33,914 nucleotides of DNA from Tubiluchus corallicola (taxonomy: Eukaryota; Animalia; Priapulida): NCBI GenBank assembly GCA_030141605.1, contig JAQGDQ010001582.1, forward strand, positions 1 through 33,914, in the 5' to 3' direction. The notes beneath the pieces are model-generated. The model was given only the letters and a program-made list of their open reading frames with translations, searched no databases and was not told the DNA's origin. A program made the translations under genes and the position numbers. Below, piece by piece: positions 1 through 33,914 of the stretch. Each line of letters begins with the position of its first letter. Positions within the stretch are counted from its first letter, which is position 1.

Positions 1-1000
1 TGTTGGGTTTATTTTACTGTTATCACGTATTATTTGAATACGTTGATCACTTAAACTGTTTGTGGTGTGCTAAAGGAAAGTACAAGTCATTTTGCATGTT
101 GGGTTTATTTTACTGTTATCACTTAAACTGTTTGTGGTGTGCTAAAGGAAAGTACAAGTCACTTAGCATGTTGGGTTTATTTTACTGTTATCACGTATTA
201 TTTGAATACGTTGATCACTTAAACTGTTTGTGGTGTGCTAAAGGAAAGTACAAGTCACTTAGCATGTTGGGTTTATTTTACTGTTATCACGTATTATTTG
301 AATACGTTGATCACTTAAACTGTTTGTGGTGTGCTAAAGGAAAGTACAAGTCACTTAGCATGTTGGGTTTATTTTACTGTTATCACGTATTATTTGAATA
401 CGTTGATCTCTTAAACTGTTTGTGGTGTGCTAAAGGAAAGTACAAGTCATTTAGCATGTTGGGTTTATTTTACTGTTATCATGTATTATTTGAATACATT
501 GATCACTTAAACTGTTTGTGGTGTGCTAAAGGAAAGTACAAGTCACTTTGCATGTTGGGTTTATTTTACTGTTATCACGTATTATTTGAATACGTTGATC
601 TCTTAAACTGTTTGTGGTGTGCTAAAGGAAAGTACAAGTCACTTTGCATGTTGGGTTTATTTTACTGTTATCACGTATTATTTGAATACGTTGATCTCTT
701 AAACTGTTTGTGGTGTGCTAAAGTAAAGTACAAGTCACTTTGCATGTTTGGTTTATTTTACTGTTATCATGTATTATTTGAATACATTGATCACTTAAAC
801 TGTTTGTGGTGTGCTAAAGGAAAGTACAAGTCACTTTGCATGTTGGGTTTATTTTACTGTTATCACGTATTATTTGAATACATTGATCACTTAAACTGTT
901 TGTGGTGTGCTAAAGGAAAGTACAAGTCATTTTGCACGCTGGGTTTATTTTACTGTTATCACGTATTATTTGAATACATTGATCTCTTAAACTGTTATCA
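1..1000. repeat. 96-bp tandem satellite, ~10.5 units visible, open at the window's left edge
   Basis: Unit TGTTGGGTTTATTTTACTG...AAGTCACTTAGCA recurs at 1, 97, 169, 265, 361, 457, 553, 649, 745, 841 and 937; the second unit is 72 bp (24-bp deletion). Confidence 0.97.
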
Positions 1001-4286: not shown

Positions 4287-7173
4287 AAGTTAAATGTAGA
4301 CACAGGAAAGTTCAAATGTGACTTAGGTAAGTCAAATGTAGACAGGGGAAAGTTCAAATGTGACTTAGGTAAGTCAAATGTAGACACAGGAAAGTTCAAA
4401 TGTGACTTAGGTAAGTCAAATGTAGACACAGGAAAGTTCAAATGTGACTTAGGTAAGTCAAATGTAGACACAGGAAAGTTCAAATGTGACTTAGGTAAGT
4501 CAAATGTAGACATGGGAAAGTTCAAATGTGACTTAGGTAAGTCAAATGTAGACACAGGAAAGTTCAAATGTGAGTTAGGTAAGTCAAATGTAGACATAGG
4601 AAAGTTCAAATGTGACTTAGGTAAGTCAAATGTAGACACAGGAAAGTTCAAATGTGACTTAGGTAAGTCAAATGTAGACACAGGAAAGTTCAAATGTGAC
4701 TTAGGTAAGTCAAATGTAGACACAGGAAAGTTCAAATGTGACTTAGGTAAGTCAAATGTAGACACAGGAAAGTTCAAATGTGACTTAGGTAAGTCAAATG
4801 TAGACTCAGGAAAGTTCAAATGTGACTTAGGTAAGTCAAATGTAGACTCAGGAAAGTTCAAATGTGACTTAGGTAAGTCAAATGTAGACACAGGAAAGTT
4901 CAAATGTGACTTAGGTAAGTCAAATGTAGACATAGGAAAGTTCAAATGTGACTTAGGTAAGTCAAATGTAGACACAGGAAAGTTCAAATGTGACTTAGGT
5001 AAGTCAAATGTAGACACAGGAAAGTTCAAATGTGACTTAGGTAAGTCAAATGTAGACACAGGAAAGTTCAAATGTGACTTAGGTAAGTCAAATGTAGACA
5101 CAGGAAAGTTCAAATGTGACTTAGGTAAGTCAAATGTAGACACAGGAAAGTTCAAATGTGACTTAGGTAAGTCAAATGTAGACACAGGAAAGTTCAAATG
5201 CGACTTAGGTAAGTCAAATGTAGACACAGGAAAGTTCAAATGTGACTTAGGTAAGTCAAATGTAGACACAGGAAAGTTCAAATGCGACTTAGGTAAGTCA
5301 AATGTAGACACAGGAAAGTTCAAATGCGACTTAGGTAAGTCAAATGTAGACACAGGAAAGTTCAAATGTGACTTAGGTAAGTCAAATGTAGACACAGGAA
5401 AGTTCAAATGTGACTTAGGTAAGTCAAATGTAGACACAGGAAAGTTCAAATGTGACTTAGGTAAGTCAAATGTAGACACAGGAAAGTTCAAATGTGACTT
5501 AGGTAAGTCAAATGTAGACACAGGAAAGTTCAAATGTGACTTAGGTAAGTCAAATGTAGACACAGGAAAGTTCAAATGTGACTTAGGTAAGTCAAATGTA
5601 GACACAGGAAAGTTCAAATGTGACTTAGGTAAGTCAAATGTAGACACAGGAAAGTTCAAATGTGACTTAGGTAAGTCAAATGTAGACACAGGAAAGTTCA
5701 AATGTGACTTAGGTAAGTCAAATGTAGACACAGGAAAGTTCAAATGTGACTTAGGTAAGTCAAATGTAGACACAGGAAAGTTCAAATGCGACTTAGGTAA
5801 GTCAAATGTAGACACAGGAAAGTTCAAATGCGACTTAGGTAAGTCAAATGTAGACACAGGAAAGTTCAAATGTGACTTAGGTAAGTCAAATGTAGACTCA
5901 GGAAAGTTCAAATGTGACTTAGGTAAGTCAAATGTAGACTCAGGAAAGTTCAAATGTGACTTAGGTAAGTCAAATGTAGACACAGGAAAGTTCAAATGAG
6001 ACTTAGGTAAGTCAAATGTAGACATAGGAAAGTTCAAATGTGACTTAGGTAAGTCAAATGTAGACACAGGAAAGTTCAAATGTGACTTAGGTAAGTCAAA
6101 TGTAGACACAGGAAAGTTCAAATGAGACTTAGGTAAGTCAAATGTAGACATAGGAAAGTTCAAATGTGACTTAGGTAAGTCAAATGTAGACACAGGAAAG
6201 TTCAAATGTGACTTAGGTAAGTCAAATGTAGACACAGGAAAGTTCAAATGTGACTTAGGTAAGTCAAATGTAGACATAGGAAAGTTCAAATGTGACTTAG
6301 GTAAGTCAAATGTAGACACAGGAAAGTTCAAATGTGACTTAGGTAAGTCAAATGTAGACACAGGAAAGTTCAAATGTGACTTAGGTAAGTCAAATGTAGA
6401 CACAGGAAAGTTCAAATGTGACTTAGGTAAGTCAAATGTAGACATAGGAAAGTTCAAATGTGACTTAGGTAAGTCAAATGTAGACACAGGAAAGTTCAAA
6501 TGTGACTTAGGTGAGTCAAATGTAGACACAGGAAAGTTCAAATAAGACTTAGGTAAGTCAAATGTAGACACAGGAAAGTTCAAATGTGACTTAGGTAAGT
6601 CAAATGTAGACACAGGAAAGTTCAAATGTGACTTAGGTAAGTCAAATGTAGACATAGGAAAGTTCAAATGTGACTTAGGTAAGTCAAATGTAGACACAGG
6701 AAAGTTCAAATGTGACTTAGGTAAGTCAAATGTAGACACAGAAAAGTTCAAATGTGACTTAGGTAAGTCAAATGTAGACACAGGAAAGTTCAAATGTGAC
6801 TTAGGTAAGTCAAATGTAGACAAGGAAAGTTCAAATGTGACTTAGGTAAGTCAAATGTAGACACAGGAAAGTTCAAATGTGAGTTAGGTAAGTCAAATGT
6901 AGACACAGGAAAGTTCAAATGTGACTTAGGTAAGTCAAATGTAGACACAGGAAAGTTCAAATGTGACTTAGGTAAGTCAAATGTAGACACAGGAAAGTTC
7001 AAATGTGACTTAGGTAAGTCAAATGTAGACACAGAAAAGTTCAAATGAGACTTAGGTAAGTCAAATGTAGACATAGGAAAGTTCAAATGTGACTTAGGTA
7101 AGTCAAATGTAGACATAGGAATTTCGAATGTGTTTTGGTAACTCAAATGTGACTTAGGTAAGTCAAATGTAGA
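4287..7173. repeat. 42-bp minisatellite, ~68 highly homogeneous copies
   Basis: Unit TTCAAATGTGACTTAGGTAAGTCAAATGTAGACACAGGAAAG, made of two ~21-bp subunits that each contain TCAAATGT. Confidence 0.99.
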
Positions 7174-9502: not shown

Positions 9503-10393
9503 CAGCTGCTGACCATCACAGGTTATATACTAGGTTAGCCAGCTAGCTGACCATCACAGGTTATATACTAGGTTAGCCAGCTAGCTAACCATCACAGGTT
9601 ATATACTAGGTTAGCCAGCTAGCTAACCATCACAGGTTACATACTAGGTTAGCTAGCTAGCTGACCATCACAGGTTATATACTAGGTTAGCCAGCTAGCT
9701 AACCATCACAGGTTATATACTAGGTTAGCCAGTTAGCTAACCAACAGGTTATATACTAGGTTAGCCAGCTAGCTAACCAACACAGGTTATATACTAGGCT
9801 AGCCAGCTAGCTAACCAACACAGGTTTTATACTAGGTTAGCCAGCTAGCTAGCCAACACAGGTTATATACTAGGTTAGCCAGCTAGCTAACCAACACAGG
9901 TTATATACTAGGTTAACCAGCTAGCTGACCATCACAGGTTATATACTAGGTTAGCCAGCTAGCTAACCAACACAGGTTATAGACTAGGTTAGCCAGCTAG
10001 CTAACCAACACAGGTCATATACTAAGTTAGCCAGCTAGCTAACCAACACAGGTTATATACTAGGTTAGCTAGCTAGCTAACCAACACAGGTTATATACTA
10101 TGTTAGCCAGCTAGCTAACCAACACAGGTTATATACTAGGTTAGCTAACTATCTAACCAACACAGGTTATATACTAGGTTAGCCAGCTAGCTAACCAACA
10201 CAGGTTATATACTAGGTTAGCCAGCTAGCTAAACAACACAGGTTATAGACTAGGTTAGCCAGTTAGCTAACCAACACAGGTTATATACTAGGTTAGCCAG
10301 CTAGCTAACTAACACAGGTTATAGACTAGGTTAGCCAGCTAGCTAACCAACAGGTTATATAGTAGGTTAGCCAGCTAGCTAACCAACACATGG
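9503..10393. repeat. 38-bp minisatellite, ~23 copies, with a near-palindromic core
   Basis: Unit CCA(T/A)CACAGGTTATATACTAGGTTAGCCAGCTAGCTAA; core GGTTAGCCAGCTAGCTAACC. Confidence 0.98.
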
Positions 10394-10815: not shown

Positions 10816-10935
10816 AACTACGGCCAAATCACGTTGAAAACAGCGGTTCTCGTCTGATCACCGAAGATAAGCAACGTAGAGCCTGGTTAGTGCTTGGATG
10901 GATGACCGCTTAGGAATACCAGGTGCTGTAGGCTT
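10816..10935 (+). pseudogene. Full-length 5S rRNA-derived sequence forming the head of a SINE
   Basis: 120 nt collinear with animal 5S rRNA (CTACGGCC...CACGTTGAAAAC...GGTTCTCGTCTGATCACCGAAG.TAAGCAACGT...GGTTAGT.CTTGGATGG.TGACCGC...GGAATACCAGGTGCTGTAGGCTT). It has several substitutions, no oligo-T terminator and no tandem rDNA context. Confidence 0.93.
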
Positions 10936-11295
10936 GGGAGATGCCCACACTGTATCTCGACACTAGGCGGAGGAGCTGCACAAGCAGCCAACGGCTAGAG
11001 GGTGGAGGAGGTCAAGTGACCCAACGGTCATGTGTAGAGGAGTAAACCTTCCAAATCAGGAGTGGAGCCCCGAAGGCGGACCAGTGCAGCATGCTCACTG
11101 ACTCCGTCAGCTCCTGCAGCCAACCTGGTACCAAACGTATCGCTCCGCTTTCCTTTGGACTACACCAGGGAGGAAGAGAAGGGGTTCCTGTTGTCTGGGC
11201 AACTCAGGATCTCCATACACCTTGCCCAGGCATGCGCCCTGGAGACGTTCAAGGAATGGACTCTCTTGGCGCACATTCCATCGTCTTCCGAACAG
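10816..11295 (+). mobile_element. 5S rRNA-headed SINE (SINE3-type) with RTE-like body and tail, copy 1
   Basis: 5S head at 10816-10935; body at 10936-11255 is highly similar to the reverse complement of ~25657-25977; tail ATGGACTCTCTTGGCGCACATTCCATCGTCTTCCGA starts at 11256. Confidence 0.85.
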
Positions 11296-11362
11296 CTCTA
11301 GAGGAGCGGGTCTCGCAATGGGATTTCAAAGCTAAAAGACTGATTATTTTTCTAATATTTAA

Positions 11363-11909: not shown

Positions 11910-12384
11910 TTCAATATTTTAAAGAGTAGATTGTTTTGACCTGCAGTTTAGGATCACAGTTTTATTTTAAGCTGTAACTTGGCATCATAGCTTGCAGTTT
12001 GACTAAGAATATCAAAATTGTTATTATCTAAACGTGGAAGATAAAATATATTGACATTTTTTAGCTGTATGCGCAGAAATACTAGCGGAAATAACTTTGG
12101 CATTTTTCTGAAGTTTGAAAGGACATTTTTCTGAAATTTGAACTTATGAGTATTGCTGTTAACGAAGAGTAAAATTTATTCTGCTTTTACTGAATATTGT
12201 AGTGCTACGTTTTCCCGCTTGCACTCGAGTAATCAAGTTTATTTGATGGAAAATGACAAGATGAAAAATATGCATAGCAATTTTCATTCCTAAAGTTGGC
12301 TGGGAACGGACACACCCACGGTAAACACATCGTACACATGTAGACGTTCATTATTGATGTTTTTCTTCTAAATTGAAGGTTTAA

Positions 12385-13486
12385 AGGAAAAGAGGACAAC
12401 TTTTCACGTCACGTTATATTTTGAAGTACAGTAAAAATTCATACATTTTAACACCAGTAATAACGCTTCTGAAAATTGAACAATTGGCTAAAAAACCTTT
12501 TTATATTTAACATTTTCTCTAGTACAAAACATACTTTACAAATTACAAACCACCAATAATAATAAGCAAATACAAACACCAAGTGACTGTCAATGAATTC
12601 AATTAGTTGTAATCAGTAATACGCATTGACTACACTTTGACAATTTTGGTTGTTCAGTAAATCATATAATATATTTCAAAGGTAGCAAACTTTTTCTAGT
12701 ATCCTAAGGTTGCTGTTCCTGCATATATATATATATATATATATACTTGTCAGATCAGTAGAGTTCGGTTGTGACGTAGTACGCACGTTCGAGAGCACGG
12801 CGGTAAACCTCAACTTCGAATTTTAAACTCAGAATTTACCGAACTTTGTTCACACACGCACGCACGCACGCACACACACACACACACACGTATATTTAGC
12901 ACAGCTCACTGCATGATTAAAATTCGGTGCTTGTAATTTGTTTCGAGTACACCAAATATAATATTTTACTATTAAAATGGTCTTATTTAAACACAGGAAA
13001 TCTTTATAACGGAAGCTTTCCAAAAATTACAACAGATTTATCAATTTCTAATGCATATTTTTGCACCCTCCATTGATTGAAATGTTCCCATATGAGTTTT
13101 ACTAATCGGTTAAAAAGTTAGTTAACGATCGGGCCAGCTAATGATGACGTCACAACTGAACATATCATGAGCGTGTTGCACGTGTTCGCAAGAGCGAAAA
13201 TTGAAGTACAGTGCCACTGTGCATTATTCAGTGTGGTGTACAAAAATTCGGCATATGCCGAGTTTAAAATTCGAAGCTGAAGTTTACTGCTGTGCTCTCG
13301 AACGTGTGTACTACGTCACAACTGAACTCTACTGATCTGACAGGTACGGCATCTATTTTTCTGCAACGCAATTCCAAAATGCGGGCGCTGTTGCCCGTCT
13401 AACTTGCGAATGGCGAAATGCCTGTAGCCACCGGGAATGAGAAATCATGTGATGATGTGATAATAATGATGATAAGTCGTTTTCTT
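12385..13486 (+). mobile_element. Second, diverged and interrupted copy of the Kolobok-like family (matching segments ~12385-12497 and ~13104-13486)
   Basis: Starts TTAA|AGGAAAAGAGGA; shares ATACATTTTAACAC, GAGCGTGTTGCACGTGTT, GCGAAAATTGAAGTACAGT and TGCCCGTCTAACT with 11363-11909. Confidence 0.65.
12744..12830 (-). repeat. 87-bp inverted copy of 13260-13346, bounded by (AT)n and (CACG)n/(CA)n microsatellites
   Basis: Ungapped reverse-complement alignment with 7 differences. Confidence 0.9.
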
Positions 13487-16159: not shown

Positions 16160-16422
16160 ACTCTATATTTAAGAAGAAATTCCTGTTAAAAGTTGAAATA
16201 ACCTTAATTTGTTCTTAGCTGATCAGTTGGTTTTTTCTGGAATAGCAGCAGAACACTGCACAGCTTGAGCTGTAGCAAGCAGGCGATCAATAAAATAGTG
16301 TGTACAATCACGCAAGTGTATACCAGACTAAGCTAGTCAATAGGCTACGTTGGAGTGCCTGAAAAGGTTGTGTTTTTCTTATTTTTTCCAATAAAATCAT
16401 TTATAAACGTTTACACAAATAG
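16160..16422 (+). repeat. Left member of a ~263-bp inverted repeat pair (partner at 18734-18997)
   Basis: ACCAGACTAAGCTAGTCAATAGGCTACGTTGGAGTGCCTGAAAAGGT is the exact reverse complement of the block near 18789-18835; similarity extends across the whole segment. Confidence 0.92.
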
Positions 16423-18733: not shown

Positions 18734-18997
18734 CTATTTGTCTGAACGTTTATAAATGATTTAATTGGAAAAAAACAAGAAAAACATGACCTTTTCAGGC
18801 ACTCCAACGTAGCCTATTGACTAGCTTAGTCTGGTGTACACTTGCGTGATCGTACACACTAATTTATTGATCGCATGCTTGCTACAGCTCAAGCTGTGCA
18901 GAGTTGTGCTGCTGTTCCAGGAAAAACCAACCGATCAGCAAAGGACAAATTAAGGTTGTTTCATCTTTTAACTTTAATTTCTCCTAAAAACAGAGTC
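18734..18997 (-). repeat. Right member of the inverted repeat pair with 16160-16422
   Basis: Reverse-complement alignment. Confidence 0.92.
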
Positions 18998-23063: not shown

Positions 23064-23375
23064 CAACTACAATGGACCATCTTCCGTGATATTACAGGCT
23101 ATCAATTAAAATTATGATGTCTAACACAAGCAAACACATAAACAGACAAACCAGAAGTAAACAGGCAAGCAAACAAACAACAAACAATCACACAACCAAG
23201 CAACTGAGCAAACAAACACATATACATACAAGCAAACAAACACAAAATGAACACACAAACAAATTTAAACAAAAGAACCGACTAGAAACATAAACAATCC
23301 AGTAAACAAACAAAAAAAAACAAAAACAAGAAACGTTAGCTTTATTTGAAATAGCAATACTATCCGTAAGGATGA

Positions 23376-23430
23376 AAAAAATGTGGATGACGGGATTCGA
23401 ACTTGGGATCCCTGCATGACGTAAACACTC
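23376..23430 (-). other. tRNA-like 3' half / Pol III B-box fragment (duplicated at 24237-24291), probably a tRNA-SINE remnant
   Basis: Minus strand CATGCAGGGATCCCAAGTTCGAATCCCGTCATCCACATTTTTT has a GTTCGAATCC B box followed by oligo-T; no complete cloverleaf. Confidence 0.5.
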
Positions 23431-23830
23431 AGGCAAAAATCAGCGAAGCGTGAAGCGAAATACTCTTGCCGGTTGAAAACTCAAACACTATCGTCTACGA
23501 TAAGTACCCGCGTTGACTTTTTATCTAACACTGTAGCTGCAGCAGTGATTATTCATAACTGGGCTTCATGGCTTCATAGATAATTACATGGCTTTGTGAG
23601 AGAAACCAGCCCGCATGTTTGCAAAGATGATAACAAATTTGAAAACTATCAAACCAACGCCGGCGGGGATTTGCCTAAATTAAAAATCACGTGTCGACGA
23701 AATTAAATTACAGGCGACAAATACTAGTCAACCCTGTTTAGATCAACGTGGGAGATAAAGTTCCCAACTTACGATTCGTTTTTTTATTTTCATTTTAACT
23801 GTGTTTTTCAATCTAAAACGCCAAGTTTTA

Positions 23831-24085: not shown

Positions 24086-24691
24086 GAGTACACAAAACAA
24101 ACACAAAATGAACACACAAACAAATTTAAACAAAAGAACCGACTAGAAACATAAACAATCCAGTAAACAAACAAAAAAAAACAAAAACAAGAAACGTTAG
24201 CTTTATTTGAAATAGCAATACTATCCGTAAGGATGAAAAAAATGTGGATGACGGGATTCGAACTTGGGATCCCTGCATGACGTAAACACTCAGGCAAAAA
24301 TCAGCGAAGCGTGAAGCGAAATACTCTTGCCGGTTGAAAACTCAAACACTATCGTCTACGATAAGTACCCGCGTTGACTTTTTATCTAACACTGTAGCTG
24401 CAGCAGTGATTATTCATAACTGGGCTTCATGGCTTCATAGATAATTACATGGCTTTGTGAGAGAAACCAGCCCGCATGTTTGCAAAGATGATAACAAATT
24501 TGAAAACTATCAAACCAACGCCGGCGGGGATTTGCCTAAATTAAAAATCACGTGTCGACGAAATTAAATTACAGGCGACAAATACTAGTCAACCCTGTTT
24601 AGATCAACGTGGGAGATAAAGTTCCCAACTTACGATTCGTTTTTTTATTTTCATTTTAACTGTGTTTTTCAATCTAAAACGCCAAGTTTTA

Positions 24692-25551: not shown

Positions 25552-26054
25552 TTGTTGGCATTCTACTGTCTCAGAAGACAATGGAGTGTGCCCCAAGAGA
25601 GTCAGTTATTGATCACATTGATGGAGCTGCAGTGTCGACTGTGGCTGAGCAGTGCGATCCTTGAACGTCTCCAGGGCACACGCCTGGGCAAGGTGTATGG
25701 AGATCCTGCGTTGCTCAGACAACAGGAACCCCCTCTCTTCCTCCCTGCTGTAGTCCAAAGGAAAGCAGAGCGATACGTTTGGCACCAGGTTGGCTGCAGG
25801 AGCTGCCGAAGTCAGTGAGCATGCTGCACTGGTCCGCCTTCGGGGCTCCACTCCTGATTTAGAAGGTTTACTCCTCTACACATGGCTGTTGGGTCACTTG
25901 ACCTCCTCCGCCCTCTAGCTGTTGGCTGCTTGTGCAGCTCCTCCGCCTAGTGTCGAGATACAGTGTGGGCATCCCGCAAGCCTACAGCACCTAGTATTCC
26001 TAGGCAGTCACCCCTCCACGTACTAACCAGGCTCTATGTTGCTTAACTTCGGTG
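25552..26054 (-). mobile_element. 5S rRNA-headed SINE with RTE-like body and tail, copy 2 (5S head 5'-truncated, 25978-26054)
   Basis: Reverse complement begins CACCGAAGTTAAGCAAC...GCTGTAGGCTT, joins the body at the same point as copy 1 and ends ...CACTCCATTGTCTTCTGAGACAGTAGAATGCCAACAA. Confidence 0.88.
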
Positions 26055-26055
26055 T

Positions 26056-26113
26056 ATGGACTCTCTTGGCGCACACTCCATTGTCTTCCGAGACAGAAGG
26101 ATGCCAACAACAA
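26056..26113 (+). mobile_element. Isolated RTE-like 3' tail on the opposite strand, abutting the truncated 5S head
   Basis: ATGGACTCTCTTGGCGCACACTCCATTGTCTTCCGAGACAGAAGGATGCCAACAACAA; inverted match to 25552-25603. Confidence 0.85.
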
Positions 26114-26999
26114 GGTTTATTGAATACTTATGTGGTAGATTTATTCTTACAATGCTTACTGTTAATGTTGTTCTTCGTTATGTAGACTTAAACTAATTAT
26201 TTACCTGTTGTGTTCTTTTCTGCTTCTCCTGTGTTAAGTGAATTTTTTTTATATTTCTCTGCAATTTCTTCCATTAGAACCTGCCTTATTTTGACACGTT
26301 AAATTCTAATCTATTGGTTTATAGTTTCAGTTTGTGCCTTTGTATCATTAATATTCTTCACTTTACCCTTTTCAGGCTTCATTTATAATTTGATAATGGC
26401 TTCAACAGCCAAAACGATAGTCTCTCAGTAAACATGTTATGTATAATAATTGAAGAAAGTTGTGGCGGCTCATAGCTAAAATCAGTGAGGGCGCTGCTTT
26501 AGAAAATTTTAGACATTGTTTTACTACTGTGTAAAATGAAACAAACATATGTAATGTAGTTATGTTTGAAGATCAGGTGTTGAACGGCCTCTTTTCTTAA
26601 CTGCAACTTTCTCATGGAGAGACAACTGTTGTAGTCCACTTACAGTCTCAGAATGCATTTCTTGGGGATGCAAGGGGTCCATTATTAAATAATTTTTGTT
26701 TTAAGCACACGCGCTAAGTTTACACTTTATCATACCCAAATGACGATACATGGTAACCACGTATCAATTGTTGCTGTGATAGAGACAGTACTTTTCTACC
26801 TAGCAGCAGACGCTAGCGTGCAGCGTGTTATCTCAGACACGTGCGCATGGCCGCATGCGTACAACAGCCAAACACCACGTTGCTTGGCCTGTGAAGCAAA
26901 TTGTACTTCCCTCACGTGGTCTGGTTCCGCACAAGTTTAAAAAAGAACTAAAGAAAAAAAATTATTATATTGAATATTATCGATAATAATGAGTGAAAA

Positions 27000-29812
27000 C
27001 AGGGGGTGCTGCAGTACCACAGTAGTATACACGAGCCGCTACTGATCATAACCTACAGGGGGTGCTGCAGTACCACATTACCTATACACGAGCCGCCACT
27101 GATCATAACGTACAGGGGGTGCTGCAGTACCACAGTACCTATACACGAGCCGCCACTGATCATAACGTACAGGGGGTGCTGCAGTACCACATTACCTATA
27201 CACGAGCCGCCACTGTTTGTAATGTACAGGGGGTGCTGCAGTACCACATTACCTATACACGAGCCGCCACTGTTTGTAATGTACAGGGGGTGCTGCAGTA
27301 CCACAGTACCTATACACAAGCCGCCACTGTTTGTAATGTACAGGGGGTGCTGCAGTACCACATTACCTATACACGAGCCGCCACTGTTTGTAATGTACAG
27401 GGGGTGCTGCAGTACCACATTACCTATACACGAGCCGCCACTGTTTGTAATGTACAGGGGGTGCTGCAGTACCACAGTACCTATACACGAGCCGCCACTG
27501 CTTGTAATGTACAGGGGGTGCTGCAGTACCACAGTACCTATACACGAACCACCACTGATCGTAACTTACAGGGGGTGCTGCAGTACCACATTACCTATAC
27601 ACGAGCCGCCACTGATCGTAACGTACAGGGGGTGCTGCAGTACCACAGCACCTATACACGAACCACCACTGATCGTAACGTACAGGGGGTGCTGCAGTAC
27701 CACAGTACCTATACACGAGCCACCACTGATCGTAACGTACAGGGGGTGCTGCAGTTCCACATTACCTATACACGAGCCGCCACTGATCGTAACGTACAGG
27801 GGGTGCTGCAGTACCACATTACCTGTACACGAGCTGCCACTGATCGTAACGTACAGGGGGTGCTGCAGTTCCACAGTAGTATACACGAGCCGCCACTGAT
27901 CATAACCTACAGGGGGTGCTGCAGTACCACAGTAGTATACACGAGCCGCCACTGATCATAACCTACAGGGGGTGCTGCAGTACCACAGTACCTATACACG
28001 AGCCGCCACTGATCGTAACGTACAGGGGGTGCTGCAGTTCTACACAGTACCTATACACGAGCCACCACTGATCGTAATGTACAGGGGGTGCTGCAGTTCC
28101 ACAGTAGTATACACGAACCGCTACTGATCATAACCTACAGGGGGTGCTGCAGTACCACAGTAGTATACACGAGCCGCCACTGATCATAACCTACAGGGGG
28201 TGCTGCAGTACCACAGTACCTATACACGAGCCGCCACTGATCATAACGTACAGGGGGCGCTGCAGTACCACAGTACCTATACACGAGCCACCACTGATCA
28301 TAACCTACAGGGGGCGCTGCAGTACCACAGTAGTATACACGAGCCGCTACTGATCATAACCTACAGGGGGTGCTGCAGTTCCACAGTAGTATACACGAAC
28401 CGCTACTGATCATAACCTACAGGGGGTGCTGCAGTACCACAGTAGTATACACGAACCACCACTGATCATAACCTACAGGGGGTGCTGCAGTACCACAGTA
28501 GTATACACGAGCCACCACTGATCATAACGTACAGGGGGCGCTGCAGTACTACAGTACCTATACACGAGCCGCTACTGATCATAACCTACAGGGGGTGCTG
28601 CAGTACCACAGTAGTATACACGAGCCGCCACTGATCATAACGTACAGGGGGCGCTGCAGTACCTATACACGAGCCACCACTGATCATAACGTACAGGGGG
28701 CGCTGCAGTACCACAGTAGTATACACGAGCCGCCACTGATCATAACGTACAGGGGGCGCTGCAGTACCTATACACGAGCCGCTACTGATCATAACCTACA
28801 GGGGGTGCTGCAGTACCACAGTAGTATACACGAGCCGCCACTGATCATAACCTACAGGGGGTGCTGCAGTACCTATACACGAGCCGCTACTGATCGTAAT
28901 GTACAGGGGGTGCTGCAGTTCCACAGTAGTATACACGAACCGCTACTGATCATAACCTACAGGGGGTGCTGAAGTACCACAGTACTATACACGAGCCGCC
29001 ACTGATCATAACGTACAGGGGGCTGCAGTACCAACACCCACAAACACCAACACAACACACCCCACACAAACACTACCTATACACGACCCACTGATCTAAC
29101 TACAGGGGGTGCTGCAGTACCACAGTACTATACACGAGCCGCCACTGATCATAACCTACAGGGGGTGCTGCAGTTCCACAGTACCTATACACGAGCCGCC
29201 ACTGATCATAACCTACAGGGGGTGCTGCAGTCCACAGTATATACACGAGCCGCCACTGATCATAACCTACAGGGGGTGCTGCAGTACCACAGTAGTATAC
29301 ACGAGCCGCCACTGATCATAACCTACAGGGGGTGCTGCAGTACCACAGTAGTATACACGAGCCGCTACTGATCATAACCTACAGGGGGTGCTGCAGTACC
29401 ACAGTACCTATACACGAGCCGCCACTGATCATAACCTACAGGGGGTGCTGCAGTACCACAGTACCTATACACGAGCCGCTACTGATCATAACCTACAGGG
29501 GGTGCTGCAGTACCACAGTAGTATACACGAGCCGCTACTGATCATAACCTACAGGGGGTGCTGCAGTACCACAGTACCTATACACGAGCCGCTACTGATC
29601 ATAACCTACAGGGGGTGCTGCAGTACCACAGTAGTATACACGAGCCGCTACTGATCATAACCTACAGGGGGTGCTGCAGTACCACAGTAGTATACACGAG
29701 CCGCTACTGATCATAACGTACAGGGGGTGCTGCAGTACCACAGTACCTATACACAAGCTGCCACAGATTTTAACCTACAGGGGGCGCTGCAGTACCACAG
29801 TACCTATATACA
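27000..29812. repeat. 56-57-bp GC-rich minisatellite, ~50 copies
   Basis: Unit CAGGGGG(T/C)GCTGCAGTACCACAGTA(G/CC)TATACACGAGCCGCCACTGATCATAAC(C/G)TA. Confidence 0.99.
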
Positions 29813-30394: not shown

Positions 30395-30712
30395 AATGTT
30401 TTTGCTGTTGAAAATTATGTTAGTTTGTGACGAAATGCACACGTTCTACAACTTATACGTGAGTAGAGTGGTAAATTTTAAATTTGAATTTTTATCTTGA
30501 AACCAATTTTCACTTTCGCAAACACGTGCAACACACTCGTTAAATATTTTTGATGTTGAAAATTATGTTCGTTTGTGATGTCATCAACAGTTGGGCTCGC
30601 CCGCCTTTGATTAAGTTTTTAATATATAATTTAATTATCAGAAACGGGTTTGCAGTATTAATTGTGTTGAAATGTATATTTTTATCAGATTTGAAAATGG
30701 GGTAGTATATGA
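30395..30712 (-). mobile_element. Third, truncated copy of the Kolobok-like family
   Basis: Reverse complement matches ~11385-11720 (CCCCATTTTCAAATC, GCGGGCGAGCCCAACT, GTGTTGCACGTGTTTGCGAAAG, AAGATAAAAATTCAAATTT). Confidence 0.8.
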
Positions 30713-31350
30713 TACATATAGTTGATTCTAGCATGAGTCGTTTATTAATGAATACTTGATTAAGAGACAGCCTACATAATAACTTAAATACAATTATACG
30801 TACAATACAATAATACAATTATTACAAAATTATTATTATTACAATTATTACAGTTATAATACAATTTGTGTAGTATTACGGTTATTACAGCAGTACATAT
30901 AGTTGATTCTAGCATAAGTTGTTTATTAATGAATACTTGATTAAGAGACAGTCTACGTAATAACTTAAATGCAATTATACGTACAATAACATAATAGAAT
31001 TATTACAAATTTATTTTAATTACAATAATTACAGTTATAATACAATTAGTGTAGTATTACAGTTATTACAGCAGTACATATAGTTGATTCTAGCATGAGT
31101 TGTTTATTAATGAGTACTTGATTGAGAGACAGTCTACATAATAACTTAAAATACAATTATACGAACAATACAATAATAGAATTATTACAAATTTATTATT
31201 ATTACAATATTACAGTTATAATACAATTAGTGTAGTATTACAGTTATTACAGCAATACATATAGTTGATTCTAGCATGAGTTGTTTATTAATGAGTACTT
31301 GATTGAGAGACAGCCTACATAATAACTAAAAATACAATTATACGTACAAT
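30713..31350 (+). repeat. ~181-bp AT-rich satellite, ~3.5 units
   Basis: CATATAGTTGATTCTAGCAT recurs at 30715, 30896, 31077 and 31258. Confidence 0.96.
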
Positions 31351-32766: not shown

Positions 32767-33914
32767 ATTGTTCGTATAATTGTATTTTTAGTTATTATGT
32801 AGGCTGTCTCTCAATCAAGTACTCATTAGTAAACAACTCATGCTAGAATCAACTATATGTATTGCTGTAACAACTGTAATAATTGTAATAATAATAAATT
32901 TGTAATAATTGTATTATCGTATTGTACGTATAATTGTATTTTAAGTTGTTATGTAGGCTGTCTCTTAATCAAGTATTCATTAATAAACAACTCATGCTAG
33001 AAACAACTATATGTACTGCTGTAATAACTGTAATAATAATAAATTTGTAATAATTCTGTTATTGTATTGTTCGTATAATTGTATTCTAAGTTATTATGTA
33101 GGCTGTCTCTCAATCAAGTATTCATTAATAAACAACACATGCTAGAATCAACTATATGTACTGCTGTAATAACTGTCTACACTAATTGTACTGCAATATT
33201 GCAATATAATAAATTTGTAATAATTCTATTATTGTATTGTACGTGTAATTGTATTTTAAGTTATTATGTAGGCTGTCTTTCAATCAAGTACTCATTAATA
33301 AACAACTTATGCTAGAATCAACTATATGTATTGCTGTAATAACTGTAATACTACACTAATTGTATTATAACTGCAATAATTGCAATAATAATAAATTTGT
33401 AATAATTCTATTATTGTATTGTACGTGTAATTGTATTTTAAGTTATTATGTAGGCTGTCTTTCAATCAAGTACTCATTAATAAACAACTTATGCTAGAAT
33501 CAACTATATGTATTGCTGTAATAACTGTAATACTACACTAATTGTATTATAACTGCAATAATTGCAATAATAATAAATTTGTAATAATTCTATTATTGTA
33601 TTGTACGTGTAATTGTATTTTAAGTTATTATGTAGGCTGTCTTTCAATCAAGTACTCATTAATAAACAACTTATGCTAGAATCAACTATATGTATTGCTG
33701 TAATAACTGTAATACTACACTAATTGTATTATAACTGCAATAATTGCAATAATAATAAATTTGTAATAATTCTATTATTGTATTGTACGTGTAATTGTAT
33801 TTTAAGTTATTATGTAGGCTGTCTTTCAATCAAGTACTCATTAATAAACAACTTATGCTAGAATCAACTATATGTATTGCTGTAATAACTGTAATACTAC
33901 ACTAATTGTATTAT
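32767..33914 (-). repeat. Same satellite in inverted orientation; shorter inner units (~145-170 bp), then apparently identical 182-bp units, open at the window's right edge
   Basis: TTATTATGTAGGCTGTCT recurs at 33091, 33261, 33443, 33625 and 33807. Confidence 0.96.

What the first reader, a model, noticed from the sequence alone, without database searches (positions are those of the whole stretch)
10816..11295. Candidate new SINE family: 5S rRNA head fused to a bipartite RTE-like body (two copies in the window)
Seen: a full 5S-derived head without a terminator runs into a ~320-bp GC-rich body. The same head-body junction (GTAGGCTT|G.G.GATGCCCACACTGTATCTCG) occurs on the minus strand at 25552-26054. 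Both heads carry TAGAGCCTGG and TAGGAATAC where I recall canonical 5S differing, which argues for a shared master element rather than independent pseudogenes. Recalled knowledge: the body (CCTTTGGACTACA...CTGGGCAACTCAGGATCTCCATAC...GCCCAGGC.TGCGCCCTGGAGA) resembles 5' UTRs of RTE-clade LINEs, and the tail (CTCCATTGTCT.CCGAGACAGA.GGATGCC(AAC)n) resembles RTE 3' ends. RTE-mobilised SINEs typically retain both LINE ends. 5S-headed SINEs are rare; a 5S+RTE design is known to me from springhare Ped-1. Inference: an independently evolved invertebrate 5S/RTE SINE, possibly undescribed.
Basis: partly seen in the sequence, partly recalled or inferred. Interest (0 to 1): 0.85.

Follow-up and report, generated by a model that had tools for sequence, protein, structure and literature searches.

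The report
5S-headed SINE built from RTE ends
This is one damaged copy of an abundant, dispersed repeat about 550 bases long that joins a whole 5S ribosomal RNA gene to both ends of an RTE retrotransposon, whose enzyme likely copies it; the design is already known from birds, fish, reptiles, mammals and moths, although this family appears to be a separate origin.

Summary
Confirmed. 10816-10934 is a complete 5S rRNA (92.6 bits). The same head-body junction recurs at 26054-25552 on the minus strand (371/397 identical), with unrelated flanks. In public contig sets the element lies about 10^4-fold deeper than its flank (summed depth, inflated). It has a sharp 5' edge and at least 104 contigs with differing 3' flanks. 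Body 11019-11245 is 67-70% identical to the 5' UTR of APE+RT LINEs. The 3' part keeps the last 21 codons of the LINE ORF and a tail 41/46 identical to the end of a LINE of the same lineage. So it is a young SINE3 with a bipartite RTE body, likely transcribed by Pol III and copied by an RTE. The flagged copy lacks 51 internal bases and its tail end. Not shown: transcription, target-site duplications, the resident partner LINE, the host taxon, absence from Repbase/Dfam. New member of a known kind.

The parts
10816..10934 (+). Complete 5S rRNA-derived head of copy 1 (internal type-1 Pol III promoter)
   Evidence: Rfam RF00001 92.6 bits. Public contigs begin to match at 10817-10818 with mixed AT-rich upstream flanks (52 contigs in X1, agreement 0.41). 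At the five listed head positions where copy 1 differs from the bulk of contigs (10843, 10867, 10892, 10902, 10910) the bulk letter is the Rfam consensus letter.
10935..11018 (+). Proximal body, origin not shown; possibly more 5' UTR of the partner RTE
   Evidence: No match to the L004 5' UTR (score 20 vs shuffle mean 21). Covered at low depth by contigs of organisms B and C; the bin holding the head-body junction has zero depth in both.
11019..11245 (+). Body derived from an internal part of an RTE 5' UTR
   Evidence: 67-70% identical over 200 nt to L002 and L004 (E 4e-16 to 7e-20); score 130 vs shuffle maximum 46. In L002 and L004 the match lies about 240 nt upstream of an APE endonuclease ORF.
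11246..11295 (+). RTE 3'-derived part of copy 1, with a 51-nt internal deletion and the terminal GGATGCC(AAC)n missing
   Evidence: Alignment with copy 2, the tail fragment and L007. Loose ends of other copies at 11291 continue into the full tail.
25979..26054 (-). 5'-truncated 5S head of copy 2 (5S positions about 44-119)
25668..25978 (-). Body of copy 2
   Evidence: 17 differences from copy 1 in 321 nt
25552..25667 (-). Complete RTE-derived 3' part: last 21 codons and stop of the LINE ORF (25667-25602), short 3' UTR with hairpin, AAC repeat
   Evidence: Top hit of 1621 six-frame segments to a profile of 79 RTE ORF C-termini, E 0.0018; 72/97 identical to the L007 3' end, E 4e-8; hairpin
26056..26113 (+). 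Tail-only fragment of the same family, joined head-to-head to copy 2
   Evidence: 41/46 identical to the L007 LINE terminus, E 3e-11

Best explanation
This is a copy of an abundant, dispersed repeat of about 546 nt made of a complete 5S rRNA gene joined to part of the 5' UTR and to the extreme 3' end of an RTE-type LINE, and it is likely a SINE3 that RNA polymerase III transcribes and an RTE reverse transcriptase copies. Shown: the three modules, a constant head-body junction, a sharp 5' boundary at 5S +1 to +3, an (AAC)n end followed by unrelated flanks, and low divergence (about 3-4% of sites per window copy). Inferred origin: an RTE lost its interior, joining the 5' UTR to the last 21 codons of the ORF, and a template switch onto 5S rRNA added the head. 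Inferred cycle: TFIIIA/Pol III starts at 5S +1 and, with no terminator, reads through to the first T-run in the flank. The partner RTE protein would bind the shared 3' hairpin and AAC repeat, nick AT-rich DNA and reverse-transcribe the RNA in place. Incomplete copying would give 5'-truncated copies such as 26054-25552 and 26056-26113.
For: Head. Dispersed and abundant: X1 summed depth 169 in the left flank vs 1.2-2.4 million across 10833-11239, X4 2.9 vs 25,000-140,000; depth at the junction position 10937 is 1.1 million in X1. 52 contigs with differing 5' flanks at 10817 and 27+21+56 with differing 3' flanks at 26108-26113 (agreement 0.41-0.45). Flanks of the two window copies are unrelated (72, 9 and 142 of 200 shuffles score as high). 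5' UTR match: 2 of 5 metagenome hits extend to 200 nt and precede an APE ORF; that ORF's relatives are single APE+RT proteins of about 1050 aa, mostly on 3.3-4.9 kb contigs. 3' match. L007, which shares the tail, groups with that protein family on an RT tree (98/99, midpoint root). The hairpin stem is identical in SINE and L007 and only the loop region differs. RTE anchor: L004's 5' UTR carries the motif seen in AviRTE-derived BuceSINE (compared by eye). Precedent for the route: PMC5786205.
Against: No transcript was seen and no Pol III test was possible. No target-site duplication was found: none of 5 nt or more for copy 1, only a 5-mer for the copy 2 compound, though both are damaged. The autonomous partner was not found in this genome (no assembly; no RT coding remnant in the window besides the tail); the LINEs compared come from other organisms. 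Summed contig depth is not a copy number and overcounts short overlapping contigs, so I take 10^3-10^4 as the range. The tail hairpin energy alone is weak (z -2.0, -1.9 in the SINE; -0.4 in L007). The absence of T4 runs is expected by chance about 40% of the time at 20% T (my estimate). The RTE label rests on anatomy, names and a by-eye motif match, not on a tree with named reference clades.
Confidence: 0.9

Rival explanations
1. A bipartite non-autonomous RTE transcribed by Pol II (from the RTE 5' UTR or from host read-through) that carries 5S as a passenger, or repeated independent 5S-RTE chimeras made by template switching.
For: The body is long (311 nt) and derives from a LINE 5' UTR. Type-1 promoters are said to depend on upstream signals (PMC3272025 passage). 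Copy 1 has changes in the promoter region.
Against: The junction is constant (both window copies; depth 1.1 million at 10937), which independent chimeras would not give. Full copies start at 5S +1 to +3 and the family majority keeps the consensus 5S letters at the five listed positions. The conserved upstream RTE 5' UTR motif present in L004 is absent from the window at up to 3 mismatches.
Confidence: 0.05
2. The family is the deletion derivative of an autonomous RTE LINE that itself replaced its 5' end with a 5S gene, so that 5S-headed full-length LINEs exist in this genome.
For: A minority of contigs carry a longer 5' UTR/3' junction, about 12 nt more 5' UTR after 11245 (13 contigs in X4; 24 in X1), so more than one deletion form exists.
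Against: The listed loose ends at that junction return to the 3' part rather than to an ORF. Depth is level across head, body and tail. Only part of the loose-end tables was shown.
Confidence: 0.03
3. Variant tandem 5S rDNA unit with an RTE-derived spacer, or a segmental duplication of one pseudogene.
For: The head is a nearly intact 5S gene that passes Rfam's threshold easily.
Against: No terminator follows the 5S. Copies are isolated, in opposite orientation, with unrelated flanks. Flanks differ among more than 100 contigs.
Confidence: 0.01
4. Solo LTR of a 5S-carrying TRIM (Cassandra or Ajax type).
For: Ajax carries 5S promoter sequence in LTRs in nemerteans (PMC10886601 passages).
Against: Ajax holds only the promoter part inside the LTR, whereas here the element begins at 5S +1 and ends in an RTE 3' end with (AAC)n. 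5'-truncated copies point to target-primed copying.
Confidence: 0.01

Closest known systems
HaSE3 (Helicoverpa armigera; PMC3272025 passages, PMC5786205 text and supplement passages)
   Same: Invertebrate SINE3: 5S head, unknown segment, RTE 5' UTR piece, RTE 3' end.
   Different: 349 nt with a diverged 5' part of the head and only about 54 nt of RTE 5' UTR; a different RTE tail type; reported as low in abundance. No shared body or tail motif seen.
CoeSINE5 (coelacanth) and SINE-1_Pmo (python) (PMC5786205)
   Same: Annotated as 5S - RTE5' - RTE3'; CoeSINE5 also ends in AAC repeats.
   Different: 225 and 241 nt; the 5S match covers only positions 16-88 and 16-105; their RTE parts come from other RTE lineages (RTE-2_MMa type, BovB type).
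GymnSINE (antbirds, mobilised by AviRTE; PMC4844689 passages and supplement passages)
   Same: 5S head on a bipartite tail from an RTE with a long 5' UTR (about 800 nt) and a short 3' UTR (about 40 nt), like the LINEs matched here.
   Different: Different 5' UTR segment and tail; the four motifs searched do not appear in the consensus file that holds GymnSINE.
Ped-1 (springhare; original paper not seen, cited in PMC5786205 and PMC10946416)
   Same: 5S head on a bipartite RTE body.
   Different: BovB-mobilised and mammalian (recalled; title of the cited paper agrees); sequence not compared.
SINE2_Gav / RTE-11_AMi (crocodilians; PMC5786205 supplement passage)
   Same: By eye, its RTE 5' UTR piece shows several short motifs in the same order as 11110-11235, so it may have captured the same region of an RTE UTR.
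   Different: tRNA-Gly head; 271 nt; similarity not quantified.

Membership tests
SINE (SINEBase definition, PMC3531059) | Short (<1 kb), interspersed, non-tandem repeat | tested here: met
   About 546 nt; unrelated flanks
SINE (SINEBase definition) | [quoted passage not shown] | tested here: met
   104 contigs with differing 3' flanks in the listed rows of one run (alleles may count twice) and an element/flank depth ratio near 10^4; no assembly count
SINE3 | At least 60% identity to 5S rRNA over 60 nt or more at the 5' end | tested here: met
   Full-model Rfam match, 92.6 bits
SINE3 | Distinct from a 5S pseudogene: extra body with a constant junction | tested here: met
SINE3 | Transcription by RNA polymerase III from the internal promoter | not testable with these tools
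   No RNA holder was listed; promoter integrity is inferred from sequence only
SINE / non-LTR retroposon | Target-site duplications | tested here: inconclusive
   None found at the two damaged window copies; paired flanks of other copies are not available
Bipartite RTE-derived SINE (Kojima 2018) | Middle part from an RTE 5' UTR | tested here: met
Bipartite RTE-derived SINE (Kojima 2018) | 3' part from the extreme 3' end of an RTE, with microsatellite tail | tested here: met
Bipartite RTE-derived SINE (Kojima 2018) | Partner autonomous RTE in the same genome sharing both parts | not testable with these tools
   No assembly held; matching LINEs come from other organisms
RTE clade (for the matched LINEs) | Single ORF with APE and RT, no ORF1; RT phylogeny | tested here: inconclusive
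   Anatomy met; AviRTE-type UTR motif present in L004; the tree has no named reference clades
HaSE3, CoeSINE5, SINE-1_Pmo or GymnSINE as families | Shared body and tail sequence | tested here: not met
   Motif searches and by-eye reading of the printed consensus sequences; no alignment was run
Cassandra/Ajax TRIM | 5S part inside paired LTRs with PBS and PPT | tested here: not met
   The element starts at 5S +1 and ends in an RTE tail

The most novel reading that the evidence does not exclude
A young, thousand-copy-scale SINE3 in a non-arthropod invertebrate, outside the groups that a 2024 review lists for 5S SINEs (reptiles, insects, fish, mammals), whose head is a complete, still-folding 5S rRNA rather than a promoter remnant. 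Its RNA could assemble a 5S ribonucleoprotein (TFIIIA, uL18/uL5) and so be brought to ribosomes making the RTE protein, a 5S counterpart of how Alu uses SRP9/14. Thousands of near-intact heads might also compete with real 5S genes for TFIIIA.
Probability: 0.12. Interest if true: 0.65.

Novelty: new member of a known kind. Interest (0 to 1): 0.3.

Why it matters
It adds another, probably independent, birth of the 5S + bipartite RTE design and shows its construction clearly: the deletion joins the 5' UTR to the last 21 codons of the LINE ORF. If the host is a non-arthropod invertebrate it widens the published range of SINE3. In practice, full-length copies pass Rfam's 5S threshold by a wide margin (92.6 vs 38 bits), so automatic annotation would count them as 5S rRNA genes. 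A young family is also a source of insertion markers. None of this changes a general model.

Tried and rejected
No whole genome is held, so no direct copy count, TSD survey or partner search. No RNA holder listed; the one guessed-RNA run X11 covered only the neighbouring repeat; neither bears on expression. X10 (same species label) laid nothing (the tool says this can be false). Viral contig scans for the body motif, the tail motif and P0001: nothing. 3 of 5 metagenome hits (L001, L003, L005) match only the 22-24 nt pattern and were set aside as chance. Rfam found no ribozyme or other family in the body or in L002/L004/L007. The body as a whole folds no better than shuffles (z -0.82). No tRNA in the window. 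TSD search negative. Literature motif searches gave only unrelated primer hits among the 20 of 227 papers listed or nothing. Searches listed no paper on a 5S/RTE SINE of a non-insect invertebrate, judged by titles and abstract starts. The host taxon was not established. In the RT tree, loci L015, L024, L026-L029 were left out as too short; L025 and L017 are long branches and were not interpreted. A pair count on the tail alignment was not obtained. The sequence look-up of earlier findings returned nothing.

Full report
Observation. Rfam finds one family in the window at threshold: a complete 5S rRNA at 10816-10934 (92.6 bits). It is followed without a terminator by a 57% GC body; the first run of four or more T is at 11347. 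A second copy on the minus strand matches 10859-11255 at 371/397, with its head cut at about 5S position 44. A third, tail-only fragment at 26056-26113 (+) abuts copy 2 head-to-head. The flanks of the copies are no more alike than shuffles. The rest of the window is AT-rich and full of tandem repeats, with no tRNA and no RT coding sequence.

Is it a family? No assembly is held, so I laid contigs of public DNA runs on both copies. In X1 the summed depth is 169 in the left flank and 1.2-2.4 million across the element; in X4 it is 2.9 and 25,000-140,000. The tool warns that this is not a copy number, and short overlapping contigs inflate it, so I read it as roughly 10^3-10^4 copies. X1 may be the window's own sample. 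A firmer floor comes from loose ends: 52 contigs diverge upstream of 10817 (agreement 0.41) and 27+21+56 diverge just after the AAC repeat at 26108-26113 (agreement 0.41-0.45) in the rows shown; 981 and 523 further rows were not shown. Depth at the junction (10937) is 1.1 million, so the head is attached in a large share of copies. Copy 1 differs from the bulk at 13 listed positions in 10843-11232, and the two copies differ at 26 of 397: about 3-4% each, a young family. At the five listed head positions the bulk letter is the Rfam consensus letter, so the master likely had a near-intact 5S; real 5S genes also contribute to that depth. Depth stays high over 25596-25667, so copy 2's longer 3' part is the standard form and copy 1 has a net 51-nt deletion, bounded by a four-base repeat when the letter carried by about half the depth at 25654 is used. 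Copy 1 also lacks the terminal part of the tail. The whole element is 119 + 311 + 116 = about 546 nt. A minority form keeps about 12 more nt at the 5' UTR/3' junction.

Where the body comes from. A 22-nt body pattern gave 5 metagenome hits. Two (L002, L004) extend to 200 nt at 67-70% identity (E down to 7e-20); three are pattern-only. The local alignment covers 11019-11245 (score 130; shuffle maximum 46), while 10935-11035 alone does not match. In both loci the match lies upstream of an AP-endonuclease ORF. That ORF has 1186 relatives at E<=1e-30; 79 of the 120 listed are 1000-1200 aa, and these carry APE and RT domains, mostly on 3.3-4.9 kb contigs. Several named hits are 'craniofacial development protein 2-like'; the link of that name to the RTE endonuclease is recalled and seen only as a reference title. 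L004 also carries, further upstream, the motif printed in AviRTE-derived BuceSINE (compared by eye), which the window lacks. In two other organisms, contigs cover the body but not the head-body junction, as expected for related RTEs or RTE-derived repeats.

Where the tail comes from. A profile of the C-terminal 60 aa of the 79 proteins picks the copy 2 segment as the best of 1621 six-frame pieces (E 0.0018; RSRIALLSHSRHCSS against hSriGLySHsrrcss). The full-length profile gives only E 0.48, as expected for 15 residues. So the 3' part starts at 11246/25667 with the last 21 codons of the LINE ORF. A scan of GTDB genomes returned 24 LINE pieces, evidently contaminants. L007 holds RT, the ORF end and the 3' UTR, and its terminus is 41/46 identical to the tail fragment (E 3e-11) and 72/97 to copy 2; no other of the 29 loci matched. 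L007 falls within the P0001 family on an RT tree (98/99; midpoint root, no named references), so both ends trace to one LINE lineage. SINE and L007 tails fold the same six-pair hairpin and differ at its loop, though the energies alone are weak.

Mechanism. Shown: modules, junction, boundaries, abundance, dispersal, homology of both LINE-derived parts. Inferred, following the route proposed in PMC5786205 (parts 1-4 of 5 read): internal deletion of an RTE, then a template switch onto 5S rRNA; Pol III transcription from the internal promoter, ending at a flanking T-run; recognition of the 3' hairpin and AAC repeat by the RTE protein; target-primed reverse transcription into AT-rich DNA. Not shown: RNA, TSDs (none at these damaged copies), a resident partner LINE.

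Comparison with what is known. The 5S - RTE5' - RTE3' layout is published for CoeSINE5, SINE-1_Pmo and HaSE3, GymnSINE (PMC4844689 passages) and Ped-1 (cited only). PMC7245038 (passages) says that some bipartite RTE SINEs have 5S heads and that SINE3 occurs in vertebrates and some insects; PMC10946416 (passages) lists reptiles, insects, fish and mammals. PMC4758252 (passages) mentions no molluscan 5S SINE in the places found. The printed consensus sequences of CoeSINE5, HaSE3, SINE-1_Pmo and GymnSINE share no recognisable body or tail with this family (motif search and by eye). What differs here is a full-length head, a longer body, retention of the ORF end, and a different RTE lineage. Earlier notes of this scan describe planarian and fish 5S SINEs on other DNA and call this genome a likely non-arthropod invertebrate; both are unchecked. 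From recall the 5S looks spiralian, which I could not test. Repbase, Dfam and SINEBase sequences, subscription papers and bioRxiv supplements were not searchable, so prior cataloguing is open.

Verdict. New member of a known kind; interest 0.3.

Noticed in passing
window 25552-26113: Copy 2 (minus) and a tail-only fragment (plus) are joined head-to-head at 26054/26056, so the compound has an AAC tail at both ends. It could be two-ended target priming at one break or two adjacent insertions. No TSD beyond a 5-mer; the junction is not among the joints listed, and the right flank has no cover there.
   Followed up: partly
window 11180-11214; L002, L004: A predicted hairpin in the retained 5' UTR segment keeps three double-sided pair changes between the SINE and the LINEs; only two independent lineages, so a hint only.
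   Followed up: partly
window 11359-about 11800; also 12380-12494, 13100-13400, 30418-30712: A second high-copy family starts sharply at 11358-11359 with TTAAAGG (depth 1.4-3.7 million in X1, mixed upstream flanks). It looks like a non-autonomous DNA transposon (recalled resemblance to Kolobok-type elements); some contigs of the guessed-RNA run X11 match it.
   Followed up: no
window 23234-23828 and 24095-24689: Exact 595-nt direct duplicate between microsatellites; a recent duplication or an assembly artefact.
   Followed up: no
window 118-996, 4287-7121, 9503-10390, 26999-29808, 30713-31350, 32767-33914: Several minisatellite arrays (96, 42, 38, 57/56, 181/182 nt units); the 182-nt arrays at 30713-31350 and 33023-33914 are in opposite orientation.
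   Followed up: no
window 12744-12847 / 13243-13346 and 16160-16422 / 18734-18996: Inverted repeat pairs (88% and 90%), possible MITE or DNA transposon ends.
   Followed up: no
L006-L029: 24 animal- or plant-type LINE fragments sit inside bacterial and archaeal GTDB assemblies, including named isolate genomes (L007, L014, L020); likely contamination.
   Followed up: no
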